Made by a program: the position numbers and the translations under genes
Shown here: one piece after another, positions 5,334 through 64,000 of the stretch
Layout of the letters: each line of letters begins with the position of its first letter
Numbering within the stretch: position 1 is the stretch's first letter
Notes under the pieces: model-generated
What the model was told of the DNA's origin: nothing
Database searches by the model: none
What the model saw: only the letters and a program-made list of their open reading frames with translations
DNA from: an uncultured Methanomassiliicoccus sp.
GTDB lineage: Archaea; Thermoplasmatota; Thermoplasmata; Methanomassiliicoccales; UBA472
NCBI GenBank assembly: GCA_964585915.1
Contig: CAZPFU010000001.1
Location: 31,420-95,419 of the forward strand
DNA: 64,000 bases
Direction: 5' to 3'

Positions 5334-5365
5334 CTTTTTCCCCTTCTGAAGCATCACCGGTCCCG

Positions 5366-36900: not shown

Positions 36901-37398
36901 CTTAAGAGTGCTCGTGACACCCTCAACTGAAATACTGGCTGTTTTCCGACGTTCACTTCTTGCTTGTTCATCAAAAATCAAGCGGCGGAGCTCCATTTTC
37001 ATTTTTCTAATTTCTTCTGCTTGGGGTGCAGAAATTGCAGTTAGTAGCCTCTCAACGGAGTCTAGCGCACGGTCTGTATCATCGCTGGAAAATGCCTCCT
37101 GGTGTGCCCACTTGTTGCGTACTTCCCTAAGTTCACTAACTAAGCTGCGTTCAGCATAACCAAAGATATTACGGAATATATCGTTCCAGGTATTCCAGAT
37201 TAATTTGAGCAGTGCGGCAGAGTCCCAATCTGAAATTGGCTTCTTTATTAGTGGATCGTTCTCATCGAGTGAAATAATGGCCTGCGAAATAGCCTTTTCC
37301 TTATACACATTCTGGAATTCCCGTTCAACGAATGGCCCAAGACCGCCCCTTAGTAATTCCAACGCCTTTCCAATTCGTTCATGATTGGTCATAGCCAT
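33907..37398 (-). CDS. DUF499-family ATPase with an N-terminal Swt1-like HEPN domain
   Basis: Start placed at MAMTNHERIGKALELL (GGAGG lies 9 nt upstream). HEPN motif RNKWAH (37102-37119). Walker A NFGGGKTHSML. Walker B CIILIDEWVAY. C-terminal tail typical of DUF499. Confidence 0.8.
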   Translation of the reverse strand: MAMTNHERIGKALELLRGGLGPFVEREFQNVYKEKAISQAIISLDENDPLIKKPISDWDSAALLKLIWNTWNDIFRNIFGYAERSLVSELREVRNKWAHQEAFSSDDTDRALDSVERLLTAISAPQAEEIRKMKMELRRLIFDEQARSERRKTASISVEGVTSTLKPWREIIIPHKDVASGRFQQAEFAADLWQVHLGEGTDEYRNPVEFFRRTYLTESLNRLLLNGLQRLSGEGGDPVVQLQTNFGGGKTHSMLALYHLFSGKAKSSELLGIDHVLIESGIKTIPKANRVVLVGNKISPGNPMTKPDGTIVRTLWGEIAWQLGGRKAFERIKADDEKATNPGDVLRELFNEYGPCIILIDEWVAYARQLHDNSDLPAGSFETQFSFAQALTESVKLAKNSMLVISLPASDTSGSPHTQADDVEVGGQRGREALDRLRNVVGRVEATWRPASAEEGFEIVRRRLFEPMTDPDQFKDRDIIARAFADLYRSQQQEFPPECHDIEYEKRLRAAYPIHPEVFDRLYSDWSTLVKFQRTRGVLRLMAAVIYCLWEKGDRNALIMPASIPIEDQRVQFELTRYLSDNWIPIIEKDVDGPNSLPLQIDAEVPNLGKFAASRRVARTIYLGSAPNPSAANRGLEDRRIKLGCVVPGETPAVFGDALRRLASSATYLYQDGPRYWYSTQPTVTKLADDRAEQFKRDPEKVEYELDRRLRNDLRKTGDFDRVHPLPTSSGDVPESYEIKLVVLGINHAYSKESGNPAETFAKKILETRGSNSRIYRNTLIFLAADKTRLQDLDEVIRKYLAWESILAEKDVLDLTPHQVKQALTQKDMVDRTVTAQIPETYQWLLVPIQQTPKSTVELLSIRLTGQDELAVRASKKLKSEELLVTVLAGTRLRMDLDKIPLWRGESVSIKQLEEDFASYLYLPKLKNATVLINAICDGLRLLTWVVDTFAYADSYDDVTHHYRGLRGGQSVSIQEGNSGLLVKSEIAEGQIEIKPVRLEITPAHLKVNPGTQISFFLQAFEKGGYSKKLSKAKWFAQGGTITEDGLFLAGQKEGEFVVTAEIDDLAAEAEVEIVKGDVSPPGNSLPKRFHASVTLDSARVGRDASKIADEVISHLAGLVNSNVKVTLEIEAEIPSGVPDNVVRTVTENGKTLKFTSQGFEKE

Positions 37399-37403
37399 GG
37401 TTT

Positions 37404-40241: not shown

Positions 40242-40314
40242 TCATTCCCCAGTACTTTAATGAAATCTTGAAATTGCTTATACACCAGATACACGAACGA
40301 TGGCAGCAATTTTG

Positions 40315-43300
40315 TCATCGCGGCACCTCCGCTCGTTGAATCAATTCAGCAAAATTGTAATTAACACTCGTAACCCCAAAGTCGGGCTCGCGCTGGAATG
40401 GTCTGCGGACGTAGTGGATTTTATATGAATCGTCTGGCATAAACTCTACAATTGCCAGAATGAAATCGTCGGGTTTGTTGAATGAATAAAGAATCTCGTT
40501 CTTTGTCACCGTTATTGTTTCAGCACCAGAGATTCGCCCTTTAACTTCTATGAAACGTAATTTTCCTGTACCTGGAATCCGACTTTCTACATCGTAACCC
40601 AACTTTTCAAGCTCACGGTCTATTGGATCGTATCCTAGGGTCCTTTCCACTTCCATTACTGCAGCCCTAGCCTTAGCAGCTGAAATTTGGGTGTCTATGG
40701 CCTGTGACGAACTTAGAGCTGATTTTCCAGCCATCTTGGCCAAGAGCCCGGCTGGGATGACCAACAGACCACCGAGGACCACTGGAGGCAATGCGGATAT
40801 CTGTCTTTCCAATTTCAATTCTGTCAAGCGTTTTTCCAGTCGTCCTTGTAAACCATCAGCCCGTTTACGGGCCTCCATCGAATTCAGGCGGGCATTGACC
40901 TTGCCTGCTTGCTCCTGAAGTTTGAGATCCTCTGCACGATGGTCCCAGTAAGCGATCTCCTTGGTCAATCTGTCCTTGACCGCCGCTTCTGTCTTGTCAA
41001 TGAGCTCCAACTTACCCGAACTGACCTCTTGCATATGCTCTGGAATTACATGCGCCACTGCATAGTCCAATACTTTTTGTTCCAATTCTCGTGTGATCCA
41101 TGCACATTCGGGGAGAGCAAGTAATGCATCCATTTTTGGTTCGTTTTCTCCAAGTGGCCGGTAGTCAAGATAAGGAGCATAATGCAAGTGTCGCGTGTTA
41201 TTCGATTCATCCATTTCTACATACAGCATCCTCTTGGAGATGAGGCGCCGTTCACCTGATTTAGTAACATTAGCATCTTGAATACCATGTTCCAGATAGA
41301 AAAGGATCCGTGGCTTGGTTCCGGGATCTCGCTCATCGACCAAGACAGTTCCCCGTCTCAGTAGGTCTTGATGACGCTCCGTGATCAGGTCGGTAACGGC
41401 TTCAAGCAAGGGATGGCCTGGACATATGAAGGCGGCCAATGGCTGGCCTTGGGGTGCTACCTGCGATTTGTCGAACGCGATTCGTTCATATCGAGATAAA
41501 ACTGGCTCCCCCGTGCCTATGAGCCGGTCCCGATTGCGTATGATGGATGGCACATGGGTGATCTCATAACGCCGAGGCTCACGCTGTTTCATCGTGCCGC
41601 CCAAACGCTGGAATGCTTCGGAGAAGAAAGACTCCACGTAATGTGGTTGGAGCCTTCGGGCTTCGGCACGCTCCATGTCTTCCCGAATTCTAAAGACGCG
41701 ACTTGCATCCATGGAATCGTGAGCCAGGGCTCGTTCCTCCAGAATATCCTGTAGCTTTTCCTTGTCAAATGCGTTTGCGACAACTGTCGTGAGGCGTGCC
41801 CTGACTTCGGGTGTTTCGCCGTATCGAATAGCTTCGATCAATAGGTCCCGAAGAGGTTTTCCTTCAAACTGAAGTCGACCTAAAACATCGAACACTCTGC
41901 CGCCCATTGCCAACCTTGCTTGTTCCAATTTTTCAAGCAATGTAAGATAGACGTCACCTTCCCTGGTCTCCTCGGCTACCAGATTCCAGAGATGGCAGAC
42001 TTCGGTCTGGCCAATACGATGAATTCGTCCAAAACGTTGTTCTATGCGATTCGGGTTCCAAGGCAGGTCATAGTTGACCATGAGATGAGCCCTCTGCAAA
42101 TTGATGCCTTCTCCGGCCGCATCAGTCGCGAGCAATACCTGTACCTCAGGATCGTGCTTGAATGCCTCCTGAGCCTTCATCCGTTCCTCGCGCCCCATGC
42201 TGCCGTGGATCAGTACAACGGACTCCTTCCGGCCTAAAAAAGTAGTAATTTTAGCATCCAGATAATTCAATGTATCGCGATGCTCTGTAAAAATCACGAT
42301 TTTCTGATGGGGGGAGGATACCGGTTTGGGAATCGTTCTAGGCATTTCGAGCTTATCCTTTGATATATCGCCATTCATCGCCGTCACTGGAGAGAATATC
42401 TCACCTAACAAACTCGCAAGTTCGCACCATTTTCTATCCTCCCCTGAATGACGAACAACGCCAGCTAACTTAACCAGGTGATCGAGGGTTTCGATCTCCG
42501 CATTTAGCTCGCTGATGGTACGAGATGCGGTGCTCTGATCCAGAATTTCCTCTTCAGCGATCTCGACCTCGTTGTCTGGTGCTTCATCCAGATCTTCTAC
42601 GTCTTCAGCATCTAATGGTTTGAATCCGAGATCTTGTGAGATCTGCCCCCCACGTTGTAACAGTTCCAGTTCTCTCAATTTACCCTCTAAACGCTGTTTG
42701 CGGCGTTGAAGGGACTGATAAATGGCTTCTGGCGAAGAGGCCAGGCGGCGTTGCAATATAGTTAATGCGAAACCTACCGTTCCAGCCCTTTTATCGTTCT
42801 GGAGCTTTTCGGCTCGATTGAACTCCTCGCGAACATATTTCGTTACTTCATAATAGAGCTGGGCTTCGGTTGAAGATAATTTATAAGGTACTGTGTACGC
42901 GATCCGCTCGGGGAATAATGCGGTGCCATCGAATTTGTAGAGATTCTCTTTGACCATCCGACGCATCATGTCAGAAACATCGGCTGCGTGAACCCCATCC
43001 CGGAATCGTCCTTCGAATCGATCCCCATCCAACAACGCCATGAACAGTTGAAAATCCTCTTCCTTGCCATTATGTGGCGTAGCGGTCATCAACAGAAAAT
43101 GGCGTGTCAATGTAGAGAGTAACTGACCTAACTTATAACGACGCGTATACTTGATTTCTCCACCAAAGATCGTTGCTGACATCTTGTGCGCTTCATCGCA
43201 AACGATCAAGTCCCACCGACAATCGGGCACTTTCAGCTTCTCTTGGACATCCTCATTACGCGAAAGTTTATCCAATCGAGCAATGACCAGATTGTTTTCC

Positions 43301-43890
43301 ATGAACCAATTGCCAGTGCGGGCGGCTTCTAATTTGTCGTTGGTCAGGATCTCGAATGGAAGATGGAACCGACGATATAGCTCGTCCTGCCATTGTTCCG
43401 CGAGGCTTCCTGGACATACCACCAGACATCTGTGCAGGTCGCCTCGTGCGATCAACTCCTTCATCAGAAGTCCCGCCATGATGGTCTTTCCCGCCCCTGG
43501 ATCGTCGGCCAACAGGAATCGAAGAGGCTGACGTGGCAGCATGGCATCGTAAACAGCGGTTATTTGATGAGGAAGGGGCTCGACAATGGAAGTGTGGACC
43601 GCGAGAACGGGATCGAACAAGTAAGCGAGATGGATACGGTTGGCTTCGGACACGAGTCGGAAAAGGTCTCCATCTCCATCGAAACTCCATGGACGACCTT
43701 CTTCTACAACTTCAATTCTTTTCTCATCGTGCCGATATAGAAGCTCACTTGCAGGTTTTCCATCTGGTGCCTTATAGGTAAGCTCTAAAGCTTCTGACCC
43801 AAACCAGCGGACATTAACGACTGTCACTAAACCATTGGGGAGAATACCACGGATTGATGCGTTTGGACGAAGATCCTCAAGTTTGCTCAT
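40315..43890 (-). CDS. SF2 (SNF2/DEAH-type) helicase with a C-terminal DUF3883/REase-like domain
   Basis: Motif I LLADDPGAGKT, motif II VCDEAHKM, motif III MTATPHNGK, motif VI QRFGRIHRIGQ. C-terminus GYDVESRIPGTGKLRFIEVKGR...TKNEILYS (D...E-x-K). Confidence 0.85.
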   Translation of the reverse strand: MSKLEDLRPNASIRGILPNGLVTVVNVRWFGSEALELTYKAPDGKPASELLYRHDEKRIEVVEEGRPWSFDGDGDLFRLVSEANRIHLAYLFDPVLAVHTSIVEPLPHQITAVYDAMLPRQPLRFLLADDPGAGKTIMAGLLMKELIARGDLHRCLVVCPGSLAEQWQDELYRRFHLPFEILTNDKLEAARTGNWFMENNLVIARLDKLSRNEDVQEKLKVPDCRWDLIVCDEAHKMSATIFGGEIKYTRRYKLGQLLSTLTRHFLLMTATPHNGKEEDFQLFMALLDGDRFEGRFRDGVHAADVSDMMRRMVKENLYKFDGTALFPERIAYTVPYKLSSTEAQLYYEVTKYVREEFNRAEKLQNDKRAGTVGFALTILQRRLASSPEAIYQSLQRRKQRLEGKLRELELLQRGGQISQDLGFKPLDAEDVEDLDEAPDNEVEIAEEEILDQSTASRTISELNAEIETLDHLVKLAGVVRHSGEDRKWCELASLLGEIFSPVTAMNGDISKDKLEMPRTIPKPVSSPHQKIVIFTEHRDTLNYLDAKITTFLGRKESVVLIHGSMGREERMKAQEAFKHDPEVQVLLATDAAGEGINLQRAHLMVNYDLPWNPNRIEQRFGRIHRIGQTEVCHLWNLVAEETREGDVYLTLLEKLEQARLAMGGRVFDVLGRLQFEGKPLRDLLIEAIRYGETPEVRARLTTVVANAFDKEKLQDILEERALAHDSMDASRVFRIREDMERAEARRLQPHYVESFFSEAFQRLGGTMKQREPRRYEITHVPSIIRNRDRLIGTGEPVLSRYERIAFDKSQVAPQGQPLAAFICPGHPLLEAVTDLITERHQDLLRRGTVLVDERDPGTKPRILFYLEHGIQDANVTKSGERRLISKRMLYVEMDESNNTRHLHYAPYLDYRPLGENEPKMDALLALPECAWITRELEQKVLDYAVAHVIPEHMQEVSSGKLELIDKTEAAVKDRLTKEIAYWDHRAEDLKLQEQAGKVNARLNSMEARKRADGLQGRLEKRLTELKLERQISALPPVVLGGLLVIPAGLLAKMAGKSALSSSQAIDTQISAAKARAAVMEVERTLGYDPIDRELEKLGYDVESRIPGTGKLRFIEVKGRISGAETITVTKNEILYSFNKPDDFILAIVEFMPDDSYKIHYVRRPFQREPDFGVTSVNYNFAELIQRAEVPR

Positions 43891-54082: not shown

Positions 54083-54293
54083 TCACTCAGTGCATGGGTT
54101 ATCGTTGGTAATCAAATAATCGTCGTCGCTACTATGCGAGAATACCATCGATGTTCTCAATTGTGATTGAATTACTCATTGTCGCGGGTTACTGTTTAAG
54201 ATAAGAACAACATACCCGATAAATAACTCTCAATTCGTTTTTCCTGTCGACTGTTAATCTTTAGTGCACAACCATTCGATTCGAAAATGATGG

Positions 54294-55457
54294 TCATGAG
54301 GTCAAATTAACATTTCTGAAATCTTCGATATCGTGTATGTATTCTGCCATCTCGTGCGATTTGATTCTTCGGTTCATTTTCACGTATTCGAGCTGGGAAG
54401 ATACTGCATCGTGTAGCTGGGAAGCCTTTCTAATTGCAGAATCATCGACCAATCCTAGGTCATTATAGCAATGGTTTGACAAGATCTGGCTTTGCGACAT
54501 CCCCTTACAGACCTTACAATTGCATTCGACATTATGGGCTGGCAGGGATCGCCATAGCTTAGAAGTGAGCATTGCTCCACCAGGATGACATGCCCAGGAA
54601 TAGTCATTTACCTGATCGAAGGAAGATGGATGAGGTTTATTCATCTGTTGTATAATCCATGCAGGATTGGCAGTTTTTGTCAGAGGAGTTATTGTATCAA
54701 TTCCATAACGCTGGAGCGTTATCGATGGTGTCTCGTTAATACCGGGGCTTACCTCTTTTTTACTCCGAGGAACACTAGAACAGTTCAGGATGGCCGGGAT
54801 ATCCCTGTTTTTCCACAGTTCTAAGTACTGATGAGGATGAGTGTCGGGATCCGCATATACCAAATTAATAATCTGTATAGAGCCTGTTTCGGCTAGACTT
54901 GATAGCATCTTAAGCTTATCCTTAAAGACCCTAACATCATCCGCTAAGGTTAGCTGAGGTATTACGCCCTTGCCAATTCCCTCCACTATGCCAAGTGAGT
55001 ATGCAATCGTCTTTTCCATAACAGATGGATTATTGGTCTGAAGTGGCGGCATAGAAACATAGTTAAGAGTCTTCACTCCTCGTTGCATCTCCAAGAACAG
55101 CTTGATTCTGGACAAATCTTGAACTGGTTGTCCAGGGACGTCGAGGATGGCGAAGTTCTCGAAACAACATGATAAATCGGCCATGCTCGTTAATCTGCGT
55201 CTGGCGTTGATCACTGAATCGTTCGTACCTAGGAATTTTTGAAGTCTCTGTCCACGAAGATCCAACTGAATGGCGCCCAAATTGCCATCGAGGGTGCCTC
55301 TGAAACCGAGATATTGCTTTGCACCGAATTCAACCGCCGAAAATGGCCGCGTCGGTGTCTCAAAGCTTGGCTTTGAACTTAGGCGTACAGAGAGAGTTCG
55401 ACCCCCCAACCCTGAGATTGTCTCATCCACACTGCCGACCTTGACCGAAGTAATCAC
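54294..55457 (-). CDS. Hypothetical protein with a C-terminal CxCxxC...H zinc signature (TGT/DpdA-like?)
   Basis: 387 aa. VECNCKVCKG...QLHDAVSSQLEYVKMNRRIKSHEMAEYI (54411-54524) is arranged like the zinc site and terminal helices of tRNA-guanine transglycosylase-fold enzymes. The start overlaps the upstream stop by 4 nt. Confidence 0.35.
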   Translation of the reverse strand: MITSVKVGSVDETISGLGGRTLSVRLSSKPSFETPTRPFSAVEFGAKQYLGFRGTLDGNLGAIQLDLRGQRLQKFLGTNDSVINARRRLTSMADLSCCFENFAILDVPGQPVQDLSRIKLFLEMQRGVKTLNYVSMPPLQTNNPSVMEKTIAYSLGIVEGIGKGVIPQLTLADDVRVFKDKLKMLSSLAETGSIQIINLVYADPDTHPHQYLELWKNRDIPAILNCSSVPRSKKEVSPGINETPSITLQRYGIDTITPLTKTANPAWIIQQMNKPHPSSFDQVNDYSWACHPGGAMLTSKLWRSLPAHNVECNCKVCKGMSQSQILSNHCYNDLGLVDDSAIRKASQLHDAVSSQLEYVKMNRRIKSHEMAEYIHDIEDFRNVNLTS

Positions 55458-56134
55458 TGCTCTTCCACCCTGATTTCATCGGTTTTAGTACGGCTGGTAA
55501 CTCTTCTTCTGTGTAGAACGCGTTCGAAAACAACGGATTCTTTGGCATAATCTGGGTATTTTTTATAGACGTATTTCATCAATCCTTTCGCGCCAAGCTG
55601 ATGCCAATCCAGTCTTGCCTTTTGATATTCATGTTTTTGAACCTGACTAAGTTTATTGAAAGAGCCTGCAGCTAAATCGACACCTTCTTTAGTTAATTCG
55701 AAATATTCCCCAGATGCCCCCTTCCTGCCCTCAGCGATGATGACTCCAGCGTCTTCAAAACCAATAATCACATCCTCGATTCTCTCAGAATACGGACCGA
55801 ACTTATAGGCTTTGAAACCAGGGTTTTCTGTAGGAATATTATGATCTGGAGCAAACTCGATGAATGTTAGGAACAACATCTTCTCGAAACAGGTTATTCC
55901 TACGACAGGCATCGGCTGGGCATACATCAATGCTAAAACCCAATCATGGACGAACATGAACTGATGTTTCTCTGAGTAATCCCATAGCTTTTGAAGCTCA
56001 CGCATTGGATAGATCACATATCCACAGACCTTGCATTGCAAGTAGTTGTACTCTATGCCATCTACCTTGCGATCAACACGCTCGTAATCGTGTTCGGCAT
56101 GCTCGATCTTGTGTTTTCTGGATTGCGCACTCAT
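55454..56134 (-). CDS. Panacea (DUF4065, SocA/GepA)-like protein with an N-terminal Zn-ribbon-like CxxC
   Basis: 226 aa. CKVCGYV, then FEKMLFLTFIEF...FKAYKFGPYSERIEDVI, which resembles the Panacea signature (KL.KLLY...AW..GPV....Y). Confidence 0.45.
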   Translation of the reverse strand: MSAQSRKHKIEHAEHDYERVDRKVDGIEYNYLQCKVCGYVIYPMRELQKLWDYSEKHQFMFVHDWVLALMYAQPMPVVGITCFEKMLFLTFIEFAPDHNIPTENPGFKAYKFGPYSERIEDVIIGFEDAGVIIAEGRKGASGEYFELTKEGVDLAAGSFNKLSQVQKHEYQKARLDWHQLGAKGLMKYVYKKYPDYAKESVVFERVLHRRRVTSRTKTDEIRVEEQ

Positions 56135-56454
56135 GTGATTGGTTCCAAGTGTGTTATCCTTAGGACACTTGCTCCATTTACATTATCTCTGTCTAACAAT
56201 ATACTAAAAATCTTCCTATCGCGTCTAGAGCAGACTTGCATTGTTGTTTTTCGGAAAGGTTTTCCTCCTGTTTTACCCTTCTTTTTTTTAGGACATTCTA
56301 TTGTATCTTTCAACATTCCGCAAACGGTTTCCGGGGACATTCTGAACTTAAATAAGTGAGCGGTCCCGGAATCACTCATATAGACTGGGAGTACCACTTT
56401 TTGATATTCGTAATCGCAAAATGGGTCATTACGACCCGTTAAATCCCCCACCAT
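56131..56454 (-). CDS. Small hypothetical protein, first gene of the three-gene operon
   Basis: 107 aa with a basic stretch (CPKKKKGKTGGKPFRK). 4-nt overlap with the next gene. Confidence 0.4.
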   Translation of the reverse strand: MVGDLTGRNDPFCDYEYQKVVLPVYMSDSGTAHLFKFRMSPETVCGMLKDTIECPKKKKGKTGGKPFRKTTMQVCSRRDRKIFSILLDRDNVNGASVLRITHLEPIT

Positions 56455-56611
56455 AATGAATATTGAAATAAATTATTCCTAAATTAAACTATGCATCAAT
56501 ATAAAAAAAAGGACCATTACGAGCTTATTGATAATTCTGAGTCGCTTAGAAATATCACAGCGGTAGTCGCATTTTTTACTCTAAATGAAGATATCCTCCT
56601 AGGTAACAACT

Positions 56612-58165
56612 TCAGGACTCACCCGGCCCAGATATCTCTCGAACATGCTTCTCGACTAGCTCAGGAGCATCGATATCATTCCCTATCGAAGCATTTAGCT
56701 CCTTGAGTCTGCGGGTGGTCACAAGAATCCTTCGTTCGTATGAGCCAACGGCTTTGTTATACGAGTCGACTGCCTTTCCAAGACCCTTTCCGATGTCTGT
56801 AAGATTCTCGGATAGGGTACTAATGCGCTGATATATTTCCATAGCAAGCTCGTTGATGTGCTTGGCATTTTCTTCTATTGCCTCTTGAGTCCACCCCTGA
56901 GCGACCACCTTTAAAAGGGCAATGAGCGTGATGGGAGTCGCCAGGACAACCCCGTTTTTAAAACCATACTCTATTAATTCTGGGTCCCGCTCAAGTGCGG
57001 CGCTGAAGAAAACCTCACCAGGAATGAAAAGTACAACGAACTCGGGAGTTTCTTCGAGTTGCTGCCAATACGCCTTGGCTCCGAGTTGGCCAATGTGGCT
57101 ACGGATGGCGGAAGCGTGGTTATCCAGCTTCTTGAGCCTTTCCCCATCATCTTGCGCTTCCAATGCTTCCAGGTAAGCGCTCATGGGAGTTTTAGAGTCG
57201 ACCACGATGCTACGTTTCTCAGGCAAATTGATGATCATGTCGGGGCGAAGATTTCCGTCTTCAGTAGCATATGTCTCCTGCTCCGAAAAATCACAGTGGC
57301 AACTCATCCCAGAGAGCTCTACGACGCGGTGAAGTGTAATTTCGCCCCAACGCCCCCGGACAGTCGGATTCCTAAGTGCCTTGACTAGGTTTCCAGTCTC
57401 AAGCTGGAGCTTAGCCTGGGCACCGTTGAGAGAACTAATTTGCTCAGTCAGCTTCGAATAGGATTCTACCCTAGCAACCTCAATATTCCGCATCTCAGTG
57501 CTGACTTTCTCCAGCGATTCTTTTATAGGCTTTACCAATTCATCAATGGATTTCTGTCTGAGTTCGAGGTCCCCCTTAGCCTTCTCCTGAAACTTTTCCA
57601 GTATCTCATTAGCAAGCTGGAGGAACGCCTGATTATTGGTATTCAGCGCGTCTGCGGACAACGCCTTGAAGCTTTCGATTAACTTCTCTCGACTCTCACT
57701 AAGCAGAACGATCTTCTCCTCTGCCTTCTTCGCTTCCTCGTTGCTCCGGGCACTTAGCTCAGATAACTGGGATAACAACCCTGTATTCTTGTCCATAAGT
57801 TCTGAAATTCTAGTGTCCTTTTCAGCGATCGTCTTCTCAAGCTGGGGTAAGCGTGTGTTGCGTTCCTCTGCTGCCGATCTCTTGCCCCCCTCCTCGCTCA
57901 GTTGCGTCTGGAGGTGATTCCCCTCTTTTTTTAATTCCTCTAGTGCAGTGGATAAGTTATTGATCGATTGATCTCTTGCTTTCAGCCCTTCAACTAGCGT
58001 GGCCTTCTCTGCCGCTACCTCTGCTTGCGCCCTTTCTTCCATTCCTTCCCGCTTTGACTTTATTATGTAAAACACGAATGCTGCGCCTGTGATCAATCCT
58101 ATGATGAATAAAACGATTGCCAGAATGTCCTCCAATATCCCACCGGGAGGGTAATACGTTATCAC
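56612..58165 (-). CDS. rmuC: DNA recombination protein RmuC
   Basis: N-terminal TM segment, a long coiled coil, and a C-terminal nuclease-like core (RPDMIINLPEKRSIVVDSKTPMSAYLEALEA...FVVLFIPGEVFF...). GTG start. Confidence 0.75.
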   Translation of the reverse strand: MITYYPPGGILEDILAIVLFIIGLITGAAFVFYIIKSKREGMEERAQAEVAAEKATLVEGLKARDQSINNLSTALEELKKEGNHLQTQLSEEGGKRSAAEERNTRLPQLEKTIAEKDTRISELMDKNTGLLSQLSELSARSNEEAKKAEEKIVLLSESREKLIESFKALSADALNTNNQAFLQLANEILEKFQEKAKGDLELRQKSIDELVKPIKESLEKVSTEMRNIEVARVESYSKLTEQISSLNGAQAKLQLETGNLVKALRNPTVRGRWGEITLHRVVELSGMSCHCDFSEQETYATEDGNLRPDMIINLPEKRSIVVDSKTPMSAYLEALEAQDDGERLKKLDNHASAIRSHIGQLGAKAYWQQLEETPEFVVLFIPGEVFFSAALERDPELIEYGFKNGVVLATPITLIALLKVVAQGWTQEAIEENAKHINELAMEIYQRISTLSENLTDIGKGLGKAVDSYNKAVGSYERRILVTTRRLKELNASIGNDIDAPELVEKHVREISGPGES

Positions 58166-58219
58166 ATGATAAATAATTATGATTAAATGATATTATAGCT
58201 GTTTACGTAAGGGGATAAA

Positions 58220-59821
58220 TTGGGATTGCTAAATTCGTTAAAGAAGGCGTTAAACCCCCAGAGGAGGGAAGAGCGAAATAATGATGTACCCAGAATGGAA
58301 CCGAATCATGAGATAAACGGCAACAACACGGTCCCATATGGACCGTCTATGCACATTCCCATCCCAGGTAACTTAGAAGATAATTCATTAACGAATTCTC
58401 TTACTTCATACCGCACCGTGCACGGCATCCCCAAAGAAATCATCGATCTAATGTGGTTTAGAGATGGACCGATGAAGAATATTGATCGCGAGCCTCGATT
58501 TGTTCACAGGACCGATCTATTCACAATCGAGGTTTCCTTTCTTGGTTCTATTGAACCCAGCGCCATAGGGATCACTGATACAATCCATCCCCCGATGGAT
58601 GGAATGGTGGTCGAGAGACCTCCCTATTACCCGACATACGAAAGAATGACCCCGGAACAAAGATGGGTGTATCTCAGTTGGTTGATCGATGTGGACGAGG
58701 AAGTCAACATTGGATATGTCTTCGTTTTCTATTACGGCCTGGAGCGCCATCTTTTCCTCGGCCATTATGAAGCAGCGTTCGATATGATTCTGCGCCTCCG
58801 ACGTGTGCACCGTAATAGCTCTTTCCTCAGCTATTCATCGAACGCATTAATCGCGACGTGTATCATCCATAACCGGCCAGACCTGTTCGTTCGATTCCTG
58901 CAGAGTCTTGTGGAAGTCACTGATGAAGATGTGAACACCATGTACCTCTTGGCGAAACGCTCATTGGGACTGGAGCTAGAACCAAAGGAGATAATGTTAC
59001 TGGCTCGAGAAGTAGGGTTCACAAATAAACGGTATCTAGAAGGAGAAAGCGCACTTTTTGAGAACGAACTTAAGAGACGAATGGTGCAGGTACTGGGAAT
59101 AGAGACGATAGACCTGAGACCTTTGGCATTGAACGATACCCCGACCCACCCAGTGATGTTCTCAGCTAATTTTTCATTACCTGATAAACAACGTGTAGTC
59201 CATATCCCCGATCTGAGTCAGAATAAGGCGTTTCGTGCATTGGTGTATCAGCTCCTCTTGGACACCCATGATGTTGTTAAGGAAAGAGTGAAGGAATCGA
59301 GAAAGGCTGAAAAATCTAGTGATATACAAATGGACAATGAGTCTGAATTGCCGATTCCATGTCCGTACTGTAACAACCCAACCAAACCTCCCAAGACCAA
59401 GAGGGTTTGCCCATCATGCAAAAAGATCATTGTTGCTCGGACTGATCCCGATTCAAAAAAGAGGGTTTTCGTTACCGAAGAAGGAGCTGCAAGATTAGAT
59501 GCTAGAAAGAAGGACCTGCAAGTCATCAGGTTTGCTGTCAAGTGTATGTGGCCTTTTGGGATGACAGCTGAGCAGTTGGAAGGTATGACCGGGGAGATGC
59601 GGGATAAAGCTCCTTGCACCGTTAACGATGCAGTTTGGAAAATTGTCAATACGAGTATGCAGAAGTGTGAAGCAGAAGGTACGATACCGTCTCAATATTG
59701 TTATTTAGCAATGGCTAACTTTTTAGAGTTTGAAGGGAAGGATAAGAGCGAGATGATGGCGAAATATCAGGAAGAGGATAAGAAGGAGTTGGAGAAAAGG
59801 TATAGAAATTTTAACACATAG
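58220..59821 (+). CDS. TerB-N domain-containing protein with a C-terminal zinc ribbon
   Basis: YERMTPEQRWVYLSWLIDVDEEVNIGYVFVFYYGLERHLF matches the TerB_N signature. CPYCNN...CPSCKK follows later. TTG start preceded by AAGGGG. Confidence 0.6.
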   Translation: MGLLNSLKKALNPQRREERNNDVPRMEPNHEINGNNTVPYGPSMHIPIPGNLEDNSLTNSLTSYRTVHGIPKEIIDLMWFRDGPMKNIDREPRFVHRTDLFTIEVSFLGSIEPSAIGITDTIHPPMDGMVVERPPYYPTYERMTPEQRWVYLSWLIDVDEEVNIGYVFVFYYGLERHLFLGHYEAAFDMILRLRRVHRNSSFLSYSSNALIATCIIHNRPDLFVRFLQSLVEVTDEDVNTMYLLAKRSLGLELEPKEIMLLAREVGFTNKRYLEGESALFENELKRRMVQVLGIETIDLRPLALNDTPTHPVMFSANFSLPDKQRVVHIPDLSQNKAFRALVYQLLLDTHDVVKERVKESRKAEKSSDIQMDNESELPIPCPYCNNPTKPPKTKRVCPSCKKIIVARTDPDSKKRVFVTEEGAARLDARKKDLQVIRFAVKCMWPFGMTAEQLEGMTGEMRDKAPCTVNDAVWKIVNTSMQKCEAEGTIPSQYCYLAMANFLEFEGKDKSEMMAKYQEEDKKELEKRYRNFNT

Positions 59822-59886
59822 CTGATGAATAATAGGTGCTCGGGCGGAACTGATTAGTGAGTCATTTTGAGTGTCTTTCATTTACT

Positions 59887-59895
59887 GTGAATCAC
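59887..59895. promoter_or_regulatory. Palindrome GTGA-A-TCAC upstream of the nucleotidyltransferase gene
   Basis: One of several related inverted repeats in the 294-nt intergenic region. Confidence 0.25.
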
Positions 59896-59956
59896 TATCG
59901 TTTTTTAGCGTAAATCCATTCTATTGGTTCAGTAATCTCTCTGACTTGCATTTAGT

Positions 59957-59967
59957 GTGATTATCAC
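59957..59967. promoter_or_regulatory. Palindrome GTGAT-T-ATCAC, followed by a TTATAAATA box
   Basis: Perfect 5+5 inverted repeat 4 nt upstream of the TATA-like TTATAAATAT (59971-59980). Confidence 0.3.
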
Positions 59968-60115
59968 TCGTTATAAATATTAAAACACTGGCCTTTCATT
60001 TATTCAGTGATTTATGACTGAAGATGCACATATGAATTTTATATGGAAATGAGTGAGAAAACATCGCTAAGAGGTTTATATCAATATCAATATATGATGG
60101 AAATTGGTGGGGAGT

Positions 60116-60868
60116 ATGACAACTCAGCAATACCTGGAACAGGTGCTTGCCAAGTATAATCTCAGCAGCGCTCAGGAACAATCATTAAAGAATAAACGAA
60201 TGCGCGTTGAAGAATTTCTTCAGAAGAGATATCCGTCCAAGATCAGGAGCTTTTACTACTCGGGGTCCTATGCTAAGGACACTGCAATCAATCTGAAGTA
60301 CGATCTAGACCTCTGCATTTACTTCAAGCATAATGCCTTCCAGACCCTGGCTGAGATGTATAACTCGGTTTATGAGAACCTTAAGTGTATTGATCAAGTG
60401 AATAAACAGCGGGTCTCCATCCGCATGCCCTCGGGGAAGGAGTCCATAGACGTGGTCCCGGCAAGGTGTATTGACGATACTTCTGACTACGCCAATCTCT
60501 ATGTGACAACTGGCAGTCAGATCCAGACCAACATTAAGAAGCACAAGGAGTACATCAGTCAAAGTGGCTGTCGTCCGATAATTAAACTGATGAAAGTATG
60601 GAAAATTGAACACGGCATACATTACAAGTCGTTTGCCCTAGAGTTACTGACCATTCGAGCCTTGGATGGCTTTAAGGACCCTGATTATGGAGAGCGGTTC
60701 GTCCATGTTCTTAAGTTTATAAGGGACAATGTTGAAAATGTCCGCCTTATTGATCCGGCGAACCAAAGCAATAATGTGGCAGACCTCATCAGTGTCAATG
60801 ACAAGCTAAATATGAAGAATCAGGCAGCGGCCTCCCTGCAACAGACGTGGGAGCAAGTAATCTCATGA
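60116..60868 (+). CDS. SMODS/CD-NTase-like nucleotidyltransferase (Pol-beta fold with an OAS-like C-terminal helical domain)
   Basis: GSYAKDTAINLKYDLDL (G-S...D-x-D, 60263-60310), a third acidic residue in ESIDVVPA (60449-60451), and IIKLMKVWK...KSFALELLTIRAL. ATG at 60116 preceded by GGTGGGGAG. Confidence 0.6.
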   Translation: MTTQQYLEQVLAKYNLSSAQEQSLKNKRMRVEEFLQKRYPSKIRSFYYSGSYAKDTAINLKYDLDLCIYFKHNAFQTLAEMYNSVYENLKCIDQVNKQRVSIRMPSGKESIDVVPARCIDDTSDYANLYVTTGSQIQTNIKKHKEYISQSGCRPIIKLMKVWKIEHGIHYKSFALELLTIRALDGFKDPDYGERFVHVLKFIRDNVENVRLIDPANQSNNVADLISVNDKLNMKNQAAASLQQTWEQVIS

Positions 60869-61608
60869 GGTCAATGGCCCGCGAGCAAGACCCTCGGAAA
60901 CTTTTCGCAGGATTGCAGGAGGAGATGCGTTCCACACTTGCCGCGGGAAAAACGATAGATCATCCGGGAGCCAAGGGAAATGACTCGGAGATGAAATGGG
61001 TTGAATGGTTGCAGCAATATCTACCCAAGCGATACAGTGCCAGCAAAGCGTTCGTTCTCGACTCACAAGGGGGTTTGAGCCATGAGATCGACATAGTGAT
61101 TTACGATCGCCAATACTCACCCTTCTTATTCTTCCAGAAGGGGGCGTGCTATGTTCCTGCCGAGAGCGTGTACGCAGTTTTGGAGATCAAACAGGAGCTG
61201 AACCGGCGCCACATCAATTATGCGAAACAGAAGGTAAAGTCGGTAAGGTCGCTGCATCGGACCAGCGCCGATATCGTCCACGCGGGCGGCCGCCTTGACC
61301 CCAGGCCACCGATACCGATACTCTCTGGGATACTGACTTATGAGAGCGGGTGGGCCGATCCCATAGGGGTAGACCTAAAGAGATCGCTGAAGAGTCCGGA
61401 CGAGCTGGAACGCATAGATATGGGGTGTTCCATATGTAATGGGTCATTCGAGGCGGCCTATGATACTGCTGGTAATGCTACCTTAACTATTGCGGAGCGG
61501 GAGAGCGGGCTAATAATATTCTTCCTTAGAATGCTAGCAAGACTTCAAAAGGTAGGAACGGTCCCAGCAATGGACATAGACCAATACCTTAGGATGATCA
61601 AACCATAA
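60865..61608 (+). CDS. PD-(D/E)xK-type protein (DUF6602-like)
   Basis: HPGAKGNDSEMKWVEWLQQYLPKRY...SHEIDIVIYD...PAESVYAVLEIKQEL (D...E-x-K). The ATG overlaps the upstream TGA (ATGA). Confidence 0.55.
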   Translation: MRSMAREQDPRKLFAGLQEEMRSTLAAGKTIDHPGAKGNDSEMKWVEWLQQYLPKRYSASKAFVLDSQGGLSHEIDIVIYDRQYSPFLFFQKGACYVPAESVYAVLEIKQELNRRHINYAKQKVKSVRSLHRTSADIVHAGGRLDPRPPIPILSGILTYESGWADPIGVDLKRSLKSPDELERIDMGCSICNGSFEAAYDTAGNATLTIAERESGLIIFFLRMLARLQKVGTVPAMDIDQYLRMIKP

Positions 61609-61814
61609 TGAGGTTTCTGAGCCACATCCTTCAGAAAGTCGAGTGGGTGTTTATAACCTGCCGTGGAGGGAGAGATACCAATAAGATATCAAAAATCTGA
61701 ATTGATTGGCTTCAAATGCCACTTCACTGATTTTTTTTCTAAATCAATGAATTGAACTTGAGCTATTATAAAAATTGGGATATCATTAATATTTGGTCTG
61801 AATAATCAGGTTTA

Positions 61815-62183
61815 ATGCATTTGTCCCAAGTAACTGCCAATGCCTTCTTCAGTTCAATTTCGATAATTGAAGGCGTTTTTTTCGCATTCTTGGTTTCATT
61901 TATTATGTATAATATTCAAGAAATGAAAAGTTATAACGAATGTATAATAACAAAAATTGGTTTAAATTTACTACATTTTATTGTATTTGCCGCAATCCTA
62001 TATGCACAGATGATCCTCTTCTTATGGTCATTACTGGAAGTTGAATCATCCGGATTCGAATTCGATTACTCCACATCAATAATGTACGTATCCATTATTA
62101 TATCAATGGTCGTATTAATAATAGTAATGATTAGAGATTATAACAAGCATAGGAGGTGGAAAAATCGATACGGCTCAAGCTAA
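61815..62183 (+). CDS. Small multi-TM membrane protein
   Basis: 122 aa, very AT-rich, with 3-4 hydrophobic helices and a basic C-terminal tail. Confidence 0.4.
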   Translation: MHLSQVTANAFFSSISIIEGVFFAFLVSFIMYNIQEMKSYNECIITKIGLNLLHFIVFAAILYAQMILFLWSLLEVESSGFEFDYSTSIMYVSIIISMVVLIIVMIRDYNKHRRWKNRYGSS

Positions 62184-62208
62184 TGTCTTTTTTTCAACAC
62201 TCGCTCAA

Positions 62209-62595
62209 TTGTCTGGAACGCTCTCAATAATCTTTTTTACTATATGGACATACTTTTATGACAAAGAAAAATATGTTGTTGGATATAAATTAATTATTAC
62301 GAAAAGAATGAAAAAATGGTTATTGATGTTATTTTTCATTCAGCTTATTATCTGTGTCACTTCTTTGATTTCAATTCTCTTTCAGCAATCGATTGGTGAT
62401 TATTCGGAAATAATCGGAAAAATTCTACTATTCGCATCTTTTGCTGTAATCATATCTATTTTATTACTTGCAACATATAATTTGGATGAATCAAATTCAA
62501 TTGATTCACTAGCATCTGCTCAAAATAATTATGTTCTAAGCATGGTAGAATCTGTGGAGGGACAGCTTGAAGAGATACGGAAAAATATGAAATGA
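62209..62595 (+). CDS. Small multi-TM membrane protein with a C-terminal amphipathic tail
   Basis: 128 aa (TTG start; an internal ATG is possible) with 3 hydrophobic helices. Confidence 0.35.
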   Translation: MSGTLSIIFFTIWTYFYDKEKYVVGYKLIITKRMKKWLLMLFFIQLIICVTSLISILFQQSIGDYSEIIGKILLFASFAVIISILLLATYNLDESNSIDSLASAQNNYVLSMVESVEGQLEEIRKNMK

Positions 62596-62717
62596 TACCA
62601 ATTTTATCGAACATTTGGAATTCCATTAATATTCTCCGCGTAGAGAGCGTTTGAGATGCCATCAGACGTTCGATAAATGACTATGATAAGATAAATGATA
62701 AACGACAGAATCCCTTA

Positions 62718-63287
62718 ATGACAAATCGTGGGAGAATGAAGGATCATATCGATAATAATGGGTCGCAGCGGCCATTCGTCGAAGAAAGTCCCTCCATCGA
62801 ACAACTATCCGAATTAATTACTAAATACGGGAAACCTCGACCCCATCTGCGTACTTGGGACCTTTCGCATCTGGACGAGCCATTCTCCCCTCCTTCTTGC
62901 TCGGGGGAGGTCGTTCTGATCATTCGAACCGATGAGTCGAAGATAGTTTACGTTTCACGGCGCGGCCATCCGAAGGACTGGTTCTTACCTATGGGCAGGA
63001 TACAGGTAGGCGAATCGGTAGAAATAGCAGCAATTCGGGAGACGTATGAGGAGACTGGTCTATCGATAGATGTCCTAGGGATCCCATTGTTGTATAAGGT
63101 GGATATCAGGTTTAAGGATTGGACTCTTAGAAGATGGCATTTCATTGTTGCTGGAAAACCACATAGTAGTAGTCTTCAACCAATCGACAAAGAGGAGATA
63201 GAGAAAGCATTCTTCTTTCAGAACCGACCTCATAATAGCGATCCTTTCTTGAGGAGATGGTTGGTTGATATTCTTAACTGTGTATAA
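62718..63287 (+). CDS. Nudix hydrolase
   Basis: Nudix box GRIQVGESVEIAAIRETYEETGL (G-x5-E-x7-REUxEExGU). Confidence 0.75.
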   Translation: MTNRGRMKDHIDNNGSQRPFVEESPSIEQLSELITKYGKPRPHLRTWDLSHLDEPFSPPSCSGEVVLIIRTDESKIVYVSRRGHPKDWFLPMGRIQVGESVEIAAIRETYEETGLSIDVLGIPLLYKVDIRFKDWTLRRWHFIVAGKPHSSSLQPIDKEEIEKAFFFQNRPHNSDPFLRRWLVDILNCV

Positions 63288-63430
63288 AGAAAATAGACGT
63301 TAGACGATTTGAGGTTGGCCAAGTCCGGAGAGACCATATTCATCACGAGATGGAGAGAATTTCTAAAAAAAAGTAAGTAGAGTATAGTCGAGATGATGAA
63401 AAAATGATAAATATCAATTTATTTACCGAA

Positions 63431-63446
63431 TTCGCTCATATGAGTG
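63431..63446 (+). repeat. 16-nt repeat TTCGCTCATATGAGTG, copy 2
   Basis: Exact copy of 52544-52559. After 3 mismatches, AATG is also shared. Confidence 0.4.
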
Positions 63447-63530
63447 TTGAATGTTCTTTATTGAAATTGATCGTCATCTCACTCATTAATCGTGCTTCTC
63501 CCATTCTATGACAATAAAATTGACTAAAAC

Positions 63531-63995
63531 TTAGGCTTTCTGAACCTTAACAATACCAATCTCGTCCTTCAATTGCTCTTCAAGGATTAATATGATCATT
63601 GGCATCTCAATCCCCAGTTGTTTCTCGATGACGATGAAATTTAAAGTTGATTCATGAGCCTTCTTTGAACAAGCGAACAATTGGCCGACGATCTTCAGAT
63701 CTCTGCTTCGATTTTCCTCACAGAGGGATGGGACGTTTTTCCTCAGCAGTTCATCAATCACCAAACGCAGACCTTCCTCCTCTTTTGTAAGGTCTGCAAT
63801 AAGAATATCATCCATTTTTATAATTCCGAACGCGGCCTTATACCGCTCCTTAGACGACCTGAGGATATCATCATTGACCATTGCCAGAGATTGATATGGA
63901 TGTGGAACATAGTACTTGACGAACTCTAAAAAGTCATCCATGCAATTGAAAAAACCTTCACTTCGGTATTTCGCCAATTTCCGTGCCCTGGTCAT
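63531..63995 (-). CDS. Hypothetical protein
   Basis: 154-aa ORF in AT-rich island DNA. No family recognised. Confidence 0.4.
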   Translation of the reverse strand: MTRARKLAKYRSEGFFNCMDDFLEFVKYYVPHPYQSLAMVNDDILRSSKERYKAAFGIIKMDDILIADLTKEEEGLRLVIDELLRKNVPSLCEENRSRDLKIVGQLFACSKKAHESTLNFIVIEKQLGIEMPMIILILEEQLKDEIGIVKVQKA

Positions 63996-64000
63996 TACCT

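What the first reader, a model, noticed from the sequence alone, without database searches (positions are those of the whole stretch)
60116..61608. Minimal CBASS-like pair in an archaeon: SMODS-type nucleotidyltransferase coupled by ATGA to a PD-(D/E)xK (DUF6602-like) protein
Seen in the sequence: the 250-aa protein has the Pol-beta NTase triad (GS-x11-D-x-D at 60263-60310 and IDVVP at 60449-60451). It also has an OAS/SMODS-like helical C-terminus (IIKLMKVWK...SFALELL). The next ORF starts inside the stop codon (ATGA at 60865-60868) and carries EIDIVIYD...LEIKQ, which is a restriction-endonuclease-fold motif. From established knowledge, SMODS/CD-NTase enzymes make nucleotide second messengers that activate an adjacent effector. 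Known nuclease effectors usually carry a SAVED or other sensor domain, and I cannot see one here. Inference: this is either a compact signalling-nuclease defence module with an unusual effector, or a non-signalling NTase-nuclease pair. CBASS-type systems are rare in archaea.
Basis: partly seen in the sequence, partly recalled or inferred. Interest (0 to 1): 0.75.

Follow-up and report, generated by a model that had tools for sequence, protein, structure and literature searches.

The report
Archaeal two-gene CBASS with NucC nuclease
This is an ordinary two-gene antiviral alarm system (type I CBASS): a small enzyme predicted to make a cyclic tri-AMP signal, next to NucC, the well-studied DNA-cutting enzyme that this signal switches on; it sits in a methanogen-related archaeon, which adds a host but no new mechanism.

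Summary
Two overlapping + strand genes (60116-60868 and 60865-61608, ATGA overlap) encode a 250-aa Pol-beta nucleotidyltransferase and a 247-aa PD-(D/E)xK protein.

The effector is not unusual. It is a full-length NucC, about 45% identical to E. coli MS115-1 NucC (E 3e-59). It keeps the IDx30ExK active site and the cA3-pocket residues R/Y/T. NucC binds cyclic tri-AMP in a pocket formed by its own trimer, so it has no SAVED domain.

The transferase is a compact CD-NTase. It matches a PADLOC CBASS cyclase model at E 1e-78. Its AlphaFold model is closest to CdnC and CdnD, the cA3-making partners of NucC. It carries the cA3-type SGSY motif.

No HORMA/TRIP13 or E1-E2/JAB genes lie nearby, so this is type I CBASS.

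The same pair recurs in five other archaeal MAGs, in metagenome contigs and on at least 13 bacterial plasmids, with unrelated flanks each time. A two-gene CdnC-NucC operon has already been shown to restrict phages. CBASS is reported in 5-10% of archaeal genomes.

Verdict: a real feature and a new archaeal member of a known kind. Interest is low to moderate.

The parts
60116..60868 (+). Compact CD-NTase (CBASS oligonucleotide cyclase), 250 aa, 29 kDa. Catalytic residues are G50-S51, D63, D65 and D112. The XGSX motif reads S49-G50-S51-Y52.
   Evidence: ORF confirmed. Pfam SMODS E 1.2e-10. PADLOC cyclase PDLC00803 E 1.2e-78, model positions 1-252 of 253. Catalytic residues invariant in 36 homologues. 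AF2 pLDDT 94.5. Foldseek top hits are CdnC 6u7b/6p80 and CdnD 6p8u/6p82, TMq 0.77-0.82.
60263..60310 (+). Active-site segment of the cyclase: GS (60263-60268) and DxD (D63 at 60302-60304, D65 at 60308-60310). The preceding Ser49 completes the SGSY motif seen in cA3-making enzymes.
   Evidence: Read from the sequence and the family alignment. Motif-to-product rule taken from PMC13424991.
60449..60451 (+). Third catalytic Asp (D112, within IDVVP) of the cyclase.
   Evidence: invariant column.
60865..60868 (+). ATGA stop/start overlap between the cyclase and nucC, implying co-transcription and translational coupling.
   Evidence: The same ATGA overlap occurs in the Agrobacterium fabrum plasmid pair.
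60865..61608 (+). NucC endonuclease effector, 247 aa, 27.8 kDa. Active site is I75-D76...E107-I108-K109. cA3-pocket residues are R56, Y84, T232 and V233. Gate-loop latch is H139, with L144 in place of Tyr.
   Evidence: PADLOC NucC PDLC00745 E 1.4e-92. PDB 6p7o/6p7p/6q1h/6uxf/7zgv, E 3e-59 to 7e-46, full length. Residue mapping. Conservation in 8 homologues.
60075..60082 (+). TTTATATC, a possible archaeal TATA box about 34-41 nt upstream of the cyclase ATG, followed by GGTGGGGAG just before the start codon. This is inference from sequence only.
   Evidence: Read directly. The upstream intergenic region has 0.37 GC. No experimental or statistical support. The sigma-70 scan is not relevant to archaea.

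Best explanation
This is a type I (two-gene) CBASS antiviral system carried by a Methanomassiliicoccales archaeon.

Proposed mechanism:
- The 250-aa CD-NTase senses virus infection by an unknown cue, without HORMA/TRIP13 or Cap2/Cap3 helpers.
- It condenses three ATP into 3'3'3'-cyclic tri-AMP (cA3).
- cA3 binds the three-fold pocket at the base of NucC homotrimers, the gate loops close, and two trimers pair into a hexamer.
- Paired PD-(D/E)xK active sites then cut double-stranded DNA non-specifically, destroying viral and host DNA (abortive infection).

Shown here: the identity of both proteins, conservation of catalytic and ligand-binding residues, the operon structure, the absence of accessory genes, and recurrence of the pair.

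Inferred: the product (cA3), the trigger, trimer/hexamer assembly, and defence activity in the archaeal host.
For: Effector is NucC. It aligns over its full length with five solved NucC structures (E 3.3e-59 to 6.7e-46, about 45% identity to E. coli NucC). The PADLOC NucC model gives E 1.4e-92. The IDx30ExK motif has exact 30-residue spacing (D76, E107, K109). The residues that Lau et al. showed to be essential are kept: R53->R56, Y81->Y84, T226->T232 and H136->H139. V227->V233, whose main-chain carbonyl contacts each adenine, is also kept. The same holds in other archaeal copies.

Cyclase is a CD-NTase. PADLOC cyclase model E 1.2e-78, end to end. The GS/DxD/D residues are invariant. The best PDB sequence hits are B. 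cereus BcCdnD (9sa4) and E. coli CdnC (6p80). The best structural hits are CdnC and CdnD. All of these make cA3.

Product. The XGSX motif is SGSY, identical to BcCdnD. It lacks the Asn/Gln at the first position that is associated with cAAG synthesis.

Type I architecture. Pfam and PADLOC scans of seven flanking ORFs found RmuC, TerB_N, small membrane ORFs and NUDIX, but no HORMA, TRIP13, E1-E2 or JAB.

Recurrence. In the loci compared (archaeal MAGs plus four bacterial genome loci), only the two genes are shared between archaeal loci. They are adjacent in 6 archaeal MAG lineages, in further metagenome contigs, and on at least 13 bacterial plasmids.

Precedent. A two-gene XpCdnC03-NucC operon restricts phages (10.1101/2023.05.21.541620).

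Setting. The locus lies in a defence-rich region with Hma and AbiL-like genes.
Against: There is no biochemical or genetic test of this pair or of any close homologue of this compact cyclase.

The latch residue Tyr141 of E. coli NucC, whose mutation abolishes activity, is Leu144 here. Other archaeal copies have Y, F or I, and one has a gap.

The cyclase is only about 19% identical to CdnC/CdnD. It scores below the NCBIfam CBASS-cyclase cut-off (84 vs 200 bits). Its CD-NTase clade could not be assigned.

Its nearest solved structural relatives, CdnC and CdnD, are encoded with HORMA and TRIP13-like regulators that are absent here, so activation is unexplained.

The sequence comes from metagenome assemblies.
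Confidence: 0.85

Rival explanations
1. NucC here serves as an accessory nuclease of a type III CRISPR-Cas system elsewhere in the genome, as in Vibrio metoecus or Serratia. The adjacent NTase would be irrelevant or secondary to its activation.
For: NucC homologues occur in type III CRISPR loci and respond to Cas10-made cA3. PADLOC also reports a CRISPR-associated PD_DExK model for the N-terminal half.
Against: No CRISPR array was found in the 64-kb window. Only 19 of the window's ORFs were scanned against protein-family models, so cas genes were not searched for systematically. nucC overlaps the cyclase stop codon. The cyclase-nucC adjacency is kept in every archaeal locus although the flanks differ. 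Cross-talk with a distant type III system cannot be excluded.
Confidence: 0.04
2. The pair is a non-signalling NTase-nuclease module, for example toxin-antitoxin-like, in which the NTase modifies or neutralises the nuclease or a nucleic acid and makes no diffusible messenger.
For: Small Pol-beta NTases serve as antitoxins in other two-gene modules (established knowledge). The cyclase is unusually short at 250 aa and is below the NCBIfam CBASS cut-off.
Against: The nuclease keeps the complete cA3-binding pocket and the gate loop. These would be pointless without a cyclic trinucleotide ligand. The NTase has the full two-lobed CD-NTase fold, with CdnC and CdnD as the closest structures. Close relatives of the cyclase pair with other canonical CBASS parts: E1-E2 plus JAB, and SAVED.
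Confidence: 0.05
3. The module is a decayed or non-functional remnant, or a bacterial contaminant contig misassigned to an archaeon.
For: The sequence is MAG-derived. Latch Tyr is replaced by Leu in NucC. CBASS in archaea is thought to derive from bacteria by horizontal transfer. GC of the pair (0.42-0.54) differs from its immediate flanks (0.31-0.37).
Against: Both ORFs are intact and all catalytic residues are present. Identical genes occur in independent assemblies. The copy in a contig that is 98.7% identical at the DNA level keeps 99% protein identity. Archaeal marker genes and a probable intron tRNA lie in the same window. Five other archaeal MAGs from different studies carry the pair.
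Confidence: 0.05

Closest known systems
Type I CBASS XpCdnC03-NucC (two-gene operon tested by Richmond-Buccola et al., bioRxiv 10.1101/2023.05.21.541620)
   Same: Two genes only, a CD-NTase plus a NucC effector with no accessory regulators. That operon restricts dsDNA phages in E. coli.
   Different: The host here is an archaeon. The cyclase is a compact 250-aa form whose clade was not assigned. I could not retrieve the XpCdnC03 sequence, so its similarity to this cyclase was not measured.
E. coli MS115-1 and P. aeruginosa ATCC27853 type III CBASS (CdnC/CdnD + HORMA + TRIP13 + NucC)
   Same: NucC is about 45% identical, with identical active-site and cA3-pocket residues. The cyclase model is structurally closest to these CdnC/CdnD enzymes. 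The predicted messenger, cA3, is the same.
   Different: There are no HORMA or TRIP13 genes. The cyclase is 50-70 residues shorter, about 19% identical, and ends right after the last core helix. NucC latch Tyr141 is Leu here.
Bacillus cereus BcCdnD (PDB 9sa4), type II CBASS with Cap4
   Same: It is the best PDB sequence match to the cyclase (E 1.6e-7). It has the same SGSY motif and makes 3'3'3'-cA3, which also activates NucC in vitro.
   Different: BcCdnD is 340 aa, is regulated by Cap2/Cap3 conjugation, and pairs with a SAVED-nuclease (Cap4).
Type III CRISPR-associated NucC (Vibrio metoecus 6uxf, Serratia 7zgv)
   Same: Same effector family (E 7e-50 and 7e-46) and the same cA3-triggered trimer-to-hexamer mechanism.
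   Different: In those systems the messenger comes from Cas10. Here a CD-NTase gene overlaps nucC, and no CRISPR array is present in the window.
Haloferax H-CBASS2, an archaeal type II CBASS (bioRxiv 10.1101/2024.09.12.612678)
   Same: It is a CBASS native to an archaeon and was shown to act against archaeal viruses.
   Different: It is type II with a TIR-SAVED effector, signals with cAAG and depletes NAD+. It does not use cA3-triggered DNA cleavage.
Compact nucleotidyltransferase + DUF6602 pairs on Rhizobiaceae, Cupriavidus and Paenibacillus plasmids
   Same: Same architecture: a cyclase of about 250 aa directly followed by NucC. The ATGA overlap was checked, and found, only in A. fabrum pAt12D13b.
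   Different: The cyclases are only 26-32% identical to the archaeal one, while NucC is 40-46% identical. They are bacterial and plasmid-borne. RefSeq does not label them as CBASS.

Membership tests
CD-NTase (cGAS/DncV-like nucleotidyltransferase, SMODS) | Pol-beta NTase catalytic core: GS motif followed by [D/E]x[D/E] and a third acidic residue. | tested here: met
   G50-S51, D63-L-D65 and D112 are invariant in 36 homologues. SMODS PF18144 scores 42.3 bits against a cut-off of 26.5.
CD-NTase (cGAS/DncV-like nucleotidyltransferase, SMODS) | Two-lobed cage fold: an NTase N-lobe plus a helical C-lobe, as in solved CD-NTases. | tested here: met
   AF2 model pLDDT 94.5, pTM 0.89. The 14 best Foldseek hits are all CD-NTases (CdnC, CdnD, CdnB, CdnE, CdnG), E 3e-12 to 2e-9, TMq 0.66-0.82.
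CD-NTase (cGAS/DncV-like nucleotidyltransferase, SMODS) | Encoded next to a Cap effector that recognises the nucleotide product. | tested here: met
   nucC overlaps the cyclase stop codon. The adjacency is kept in the 6 archaeal MAGs and in the metagenome contigs L015-L018.
CD-NTase (cGAS/DncV-like nucleotidyltransferase, SMODS) | Synthesises a cyclic di- or tri-nucleotide. cA3 is expected from the S-G-S-Y motif. | not testable with these tools
   Only the motif could be read: SGSY, as in the cA3-making BcCdnD. An enzyme assay is required.
CD-NTase clade C or D (Whiteley classification) | Phylogenetic placement among clade reference sequences. | not tested
   No reference clade set was available. 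The only evidence is nearest-neighbour: EcCdnC, PaCdnD and BcCdnD. NCBIfam NF041116 scores 84 bits, below its cut-off of 200.
NucC endonuclease | PD-(D/E)xK fold with the IDx30EAK active-site motif. | tested here: met
   I75-D76, then 30 residues, then E107-I108-K109. The middle residue is Ile rather than Ala. Full-length alignment to 6p7o, E 3.3e-59.
NucC endonuclease | cA3 pocket residues Arg53, Tyr81, Thr226 and Val227 (E. coli numbering). | tested here: met
   R56, Y84, T232 and V233 in the window protein. R is invariant. Y and T are each kept in 7 of 8 homologues (F and S in L008). The V227 position varies (V, C or A).
NucC endonuclease | Gate loop with latch residues His136 and Tyr141. 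| tested here: inconclusive
   His is kept (H139), but Tyr141 is Leu144 here. Other archaeal copies have Y, F or I, and one has a gap. The Y141 mutation abolishes activity in E. coli NucC.
NucC endonuclease | Homotrimer that assembles into a hexamer on cA3 binding, with cA3-dependent dsDNA cleavage. | not testable with these tools
   Needs SEC-MALS and nuclease assays, or multimer modelling. Neither was available here.
Type I CBASS | Cyclase plus effector only, with no Cap2/Cap3 (E1-E2, JAB), no HORMA/TRIP13, and no type IV genes in the operon. | tested here: met
   Seven flanking ORFs within about 4 kb upstream and 2.5 kb downstream were scanned with Pfam and PADLOC and none of these was found. 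No third gene is shared between loci. In contrast, the Bacillota relatives L009 and L010 carry E1-E2 and JAB genes.
Type I CBASS | Confers protection against virus infection. | not testable with these tools
   The only evidence is by analogy to XpCdnC03-NucC.

The most novel reading that the evidence does not exclude
The 250-aa cyclase may be a naturally minimised CdnC/CdnD-type enzyme that has dispensed with HORMA/TRIP13. It would sense archaeal-virus infection by itself, through direct ligand binding or through relief of ATP inhibition. That would make it the smallest self-sufficient cA3 synthase, and the pair would be the first DNA-degrading (NucC) CBASS operating in methanogen-related archaea, where chronic rather than lytic viruses dominate.
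Probability: 0.25. Interest if true: 0.5.

Novelty: new member of a known kind. Interest (0 to 1): 0.25.

Why it matters
The practical value is mostly in annotation.

- Pfam DUF6602 here means NucC. Pairs of a compact 'nucleotidyltransferase' and a 'DUF6602 protein' in archaeal MAGs and on many bacterial plasmids are type I CBASS systems that standard pipelines leave unnamed.
- Biologically, this adds a NucC-based, DNA-degrading CBASS to the defence repertoire of Methanomassiliicoccales and related Euryarchaeota.
- It also offers a very small CD-NTase (29 kDa), structurally close to the HORMA-associated CdnC and CdnD, as a possible minimal model for how type I cyclases are switched on.
- It does not reveal a new mechanism or a new class of system.

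Tried and rejected
1. A locus search with the 36-sequence alignment failed because no block was conserved enough. It was repeated with a 15-sequence alignment.

2. The Millman et al. 2020 CBASS classification paper could not be retrieved by DOI or by a guessed PMC id. The type definitions therefore rest on other papers and on general knowledge.

3. I looked for a conserved third gene. An all-against-all BLAST of neighbouring ORFs across 10 loci found only the two genes shared between archaeal loci. The extra ORFs after nucC in A. fabrum and in L004 have no counterparts elsewhere. The upstream TerB_N protein, the two small membrane ORFs and the NUDIX gene are not part of the system.

4. Type III CRISPR link: no CRISPR array in the window.

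5. Phage origin: no homologue of the cyclase in 50,697 phage records.

6. The bacterial promoter and terminator scan was uninformative for an archaeon.

7. tRNA CCA-adding or antibiotic NTase identity was rejected.

8. The second structure-prediction job, for NucC, was not used because five crystal structures align at E below 1e-45.
Full report
OBSERVATION. The first runs from ATG 60116 to TGA 60866-60868 (250 aa). An in-frame TTG at 60104 is possible, but homologues begin at MT.QQYLE, so 60116 is the start. The second runs from ATG 60865 to TAA 61606-61608 (247 aa). ATGA at 60865-60868 is the stop/start overlap. The reported motif coordinates are all correct: G50-S51 at 60263-60268, D63/D65 at 60302-60310, D112 at 60449-60451, EIDIVIYD with D76 at 61090-61092, and LEIKQ with E107 and K109 at 61183-61191.

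WHAT THE PROTEINS ARE: THE EFFECTOR. Pfam gives DUF6602 for the second protein (E 1.2e-31). The defence-specific PADLOC library names it: the NucC endonuclease model matches at E 1.4e-92 over nearly its full length. Against the PDB, the protein aligns end to end with all five solved NucC proteins. These are E. coli MS115-1 (6p7o/6p7p, E 3e-59), P. aeruginosa (6q1h), Vibrio metoecus (6uxf) and Serratia (7zgv). Identity to E. coli NucC is about 45%.

Lau et al. (bioRxiv 10.1101/694703) defined the NucC active site as IDx30EAK. They showed that cA3 binds a three-fold pocket of the trimer through Arg53, Tyr81, Thr226 and the Val227 carbonyl. A gate loop latched by His136 and Tyr141 closes over the ligand. 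Mapping these residues gives R56, I75-D76, Y84, E107-I-K109, H139, T232 and V233, all conserved with the exact 30-residue spacing. Only Tyr141 differs, as Leu144. Across eight homologues, five of them archaeal, R, D, E, K and H are invariant. Y81 and T226 are each kept in all but the L008 copy (F and S there), and the V227 position varies between V, C and A. The latch position is Y, F, I or L, or a gap in L008. No SAVED or CARF domain is expected.

WHAT THE PROTEINS ARE: THE CYCLASE. The first protein matches Pfam SMODS above threshold. It matches a PADLOC CBASS cyclase model of nearly identical length end to end (E 1.2e-78, model positions 1-252 of 253). So this compact form was already represented in CBASS catalogues. 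G50, S51, D63, D65 and D112 are invariant in 36 homologues. An AlphaFold2 model is confident (pLDDT 94.5, pTM 0.89). Its best PDB matches are E. coli CdnC and P. aeruginosa CdnD (E 3e-12, TMq 0.77-0.80), followed by other CD-NTases. CCA-adding enzymes and NF45/NF90 rank lower. By sequence, the best PDB hits are B. cereus BcCdnD (9sa4) and E. coli CdnC.

All three of these enzymes make 3'3'3'-cA3. [quoted passage not shown] Ser or Thr (SGSY in BcCdnD, TGSY in PaCdnD, SGSL in EcCdnC) goes with cA3, while enzymes that mainly make cAAG carry Asn or Gln there. The window enzyme has SGSY, and no family member aligned has Asn or Gln at that position. The predicted product is therefore cA3, which matches the ligand of the adjacent NucC.

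The protein is 50-90 residues shorter than those relatives and ends directly after the last core helix. Longer relatives carry C-terminal tails.

OPERON TYPE AND CONTEXT. Seven flanking ORFs were scanned with Pfam and PADLOC:
- RmuC (56612-58165, - strand).
- A 533-aa TerB_N protein (58220-59821).
- Two small membrane ORFs (61815-62595).
- A NUDIX hydrolase (62718-63287).
- Two ORFs without an above-threshold family match (55454-56134 gives only a weak PADLOC PDC-M19A hit; 63531-63995 gives none).

There is no HORMA, TRIP13, E1-E2, JAB or type IV component. No CRISPR array lies in the window. This is the type I (two-gene) architecture.

The window is archaeal. It carries Pus10 with the archaeal THUMP domain, a family-B polymerase and a 100-nt tRNA that is probably intron-containing. 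It is 98.7% identical over 9.9 kb to a 281-kb contig of a Methanomassiliicoccales MAG. Elsewhere the window carries a complete Hma system and an AbiL-like ATPase, so the region is defence-rich.

RECURRENCE. A scan of one genome per species found the cyclase in ten loci. Six are archaeal MAGs: Methanomassiliicoccales (two), Methanobacteriota (two), Ca. Methanovorans and Thermoplasmatales. In all six, nucC follows the cyclase immediately. Nothing else in the flanks is shared between these archaeal loci. Further metagenome contigs repeat the pair (P0018 and P0022 loci).

Relatives of the cyclase in Bacillota (45% identity, 304 aa) sit in type II CBASS operons with E1-E2 and JAB genes and a 324-aa upstream protein that matches a permease-type PADLOC model, presumably the effector. 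A Thermoleophilia relative pairs with a SAVED protein. This shows the usual effector shuffling.

On bacterial plasmids, at least 13 records (Rhizobium, Sinorhizobium, Agrobacterium, Ensifer, Cupriavidus, Paenibacillus) have a compact cyclase directly followed by NucC. In A. fabrum the same ATGA overlap is present. RefSeq labels these only as 'nucleotidyltransferase' and 'DUF6602 domain-containing protein'.

The compact cyclase family has 543 clusters (50% identity) at E <= 1e-10 among 1.8 billion representatives. NucC has more than 2300 clusters (90% identity) at E <= 1e-20. Neither family is rare.

MECHANISM. The best-supported reading is a type I CBASS. An unknown infection cue activates the cyclase. 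cA3 is made from ATP. cA3 closes the NucC gate loops and drives trimer-to-hexamer assembly. Paired active sites then degrade DNA indiscriminately. The protein identities, conserved residues and operon structure are shown here. The product, oligomerisation, trigger and in vivo defence are inferred from homologues.

For the trigger, two precedents exist. Type I CBASS escape mutations map to phage virion-assembly proteins. BcCdnD is held off by physiological ATP. Neither was tested here.

COMPARISON WITH KNOWN SYSTEMS AND NOVELTY. A two-gene CdnC-NucC operon (XpCdnC03-NucC) has already been shown to restrict phages. NucC is one of the best-characterised CBASS effectors. CBASS is reported in 5-10% of archaeal genomes, and a Haloferax type II system has been studied experimentally. 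A census of 7747 archaeal genomes lists CBASS at more than 3% prevalence, retained in Thermoplasmatota, with several bacteria-to-archaea transfers.

The finding is therefore a correct identification of a known kind of system in a new host lineage. Three points are mildly new. The cyclase is very small and lacks the HORMA and TRIP13-like partners encoded alongside its closest solved structural relatives. A NucC-type CBASS has not, to my knowledge, been studied in archaea. Standard annotation misses these pairs.

RIVALS. Three alternatives were considered.
- NucC as a type III CRISPR accessory. There is no array in the window and the cyclase coupling is conserved, though the window was not searched systematically for cas genes.
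- A non-signalling toxin-antitoxin-like pair. It is contradicted by the intact cA3 pocket and the CD-NTase fold.
- A decayed or contaminant locus. It is contradicted by intact ORFs, independent assemblies and archaeal markers in the same window.
Each is given 5% or less.

VERDICT. This is a new member of a known kind, with an interest score of 0.25.

Noticed in passing
window 33907-43890 (- strand): A complete three-gene Hma defence system. HmaC is a DUF499 ATPase, here with an N-terminal Swt1-like HEPN domain. HmaB is a DUF1156 adenine methylase. HmaA is an SNF2 helicase with a NOV_C domain. All three match their PADLOC models at E = 0.
   Followed up: partly
window 16710-17975 (- strand): An AAA_21 ATPase matching PADLOC AbiLi (E 2e-94). 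Together with Hma and the CBASS pair, this makes the window defence-rich.
   Followed up: no
window 31662-31761 (+) and 5250-5334 (+): Rfam finds a 100-nt tRNA at 31662-31761 that ARAGORN misses. It probably contains an intron, which is typical of archaea. Conversely, ARAGORN's tRNA-Leu at 5250-5334 is absent from the Rfam gathering-threshold list.
   Followed up: no
window 58220-59821 (+): A 533-aa protein with a TerB_N domain and two C-terminal CxxC pairs (probably a zinc ribbon). It is weakly similar to the Shango SngA model (E 2e-13) and lies 295 nt upstream of the cyclase on the same strand. It is not found next to the pair in any other locus.
   Followed up: partly
window 61815-62595 and 62718-63287 (+): Two low-GC (0.31-0.32) small membrane ORFs and a NUDIX hydrolase lie just downstream of nucC. 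None is conserved beside the pair elsewhere, so they were not counted as part of the system.
   Followed up: partly
L013 1-8756 (GCA_016235865.1, MAG labelled Planctomycetes) and L014: Three SMODS cyclase genes lie within about 5 kb, with PLDc_2, SduA_C-type and DUF6602/NucC partners. They are interrupted by an MfnB (4HFCP synthase) gene, which belongs to methanofuran biosynthesis. This could be a stacked CBASS island, or a misbinned archaeal contig.
   Followed up: no
L022 (A. fabrum pAt12D13b) and at least 12 other plasmid records listed: RefSeq annotates compact cyclase + NucC pairs as 'nucleotidyltransferase' and 'DUF6602 domain-containing protein'. NucC copies in type III CBASS operons of Enterobacteriaceae are named correctly. 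This is an annotation gap for type I NucC CBASS.
   Followed up: partly
window 54116-64000 vs L003: The window is 98.7% identical, not identical, to the GTDB representative MAG contig. It is 100% identical to a Logan contig from run SRR12489245. The window therefore comes from a sister strain or a different assembly of the same species.
   Followed up: yes
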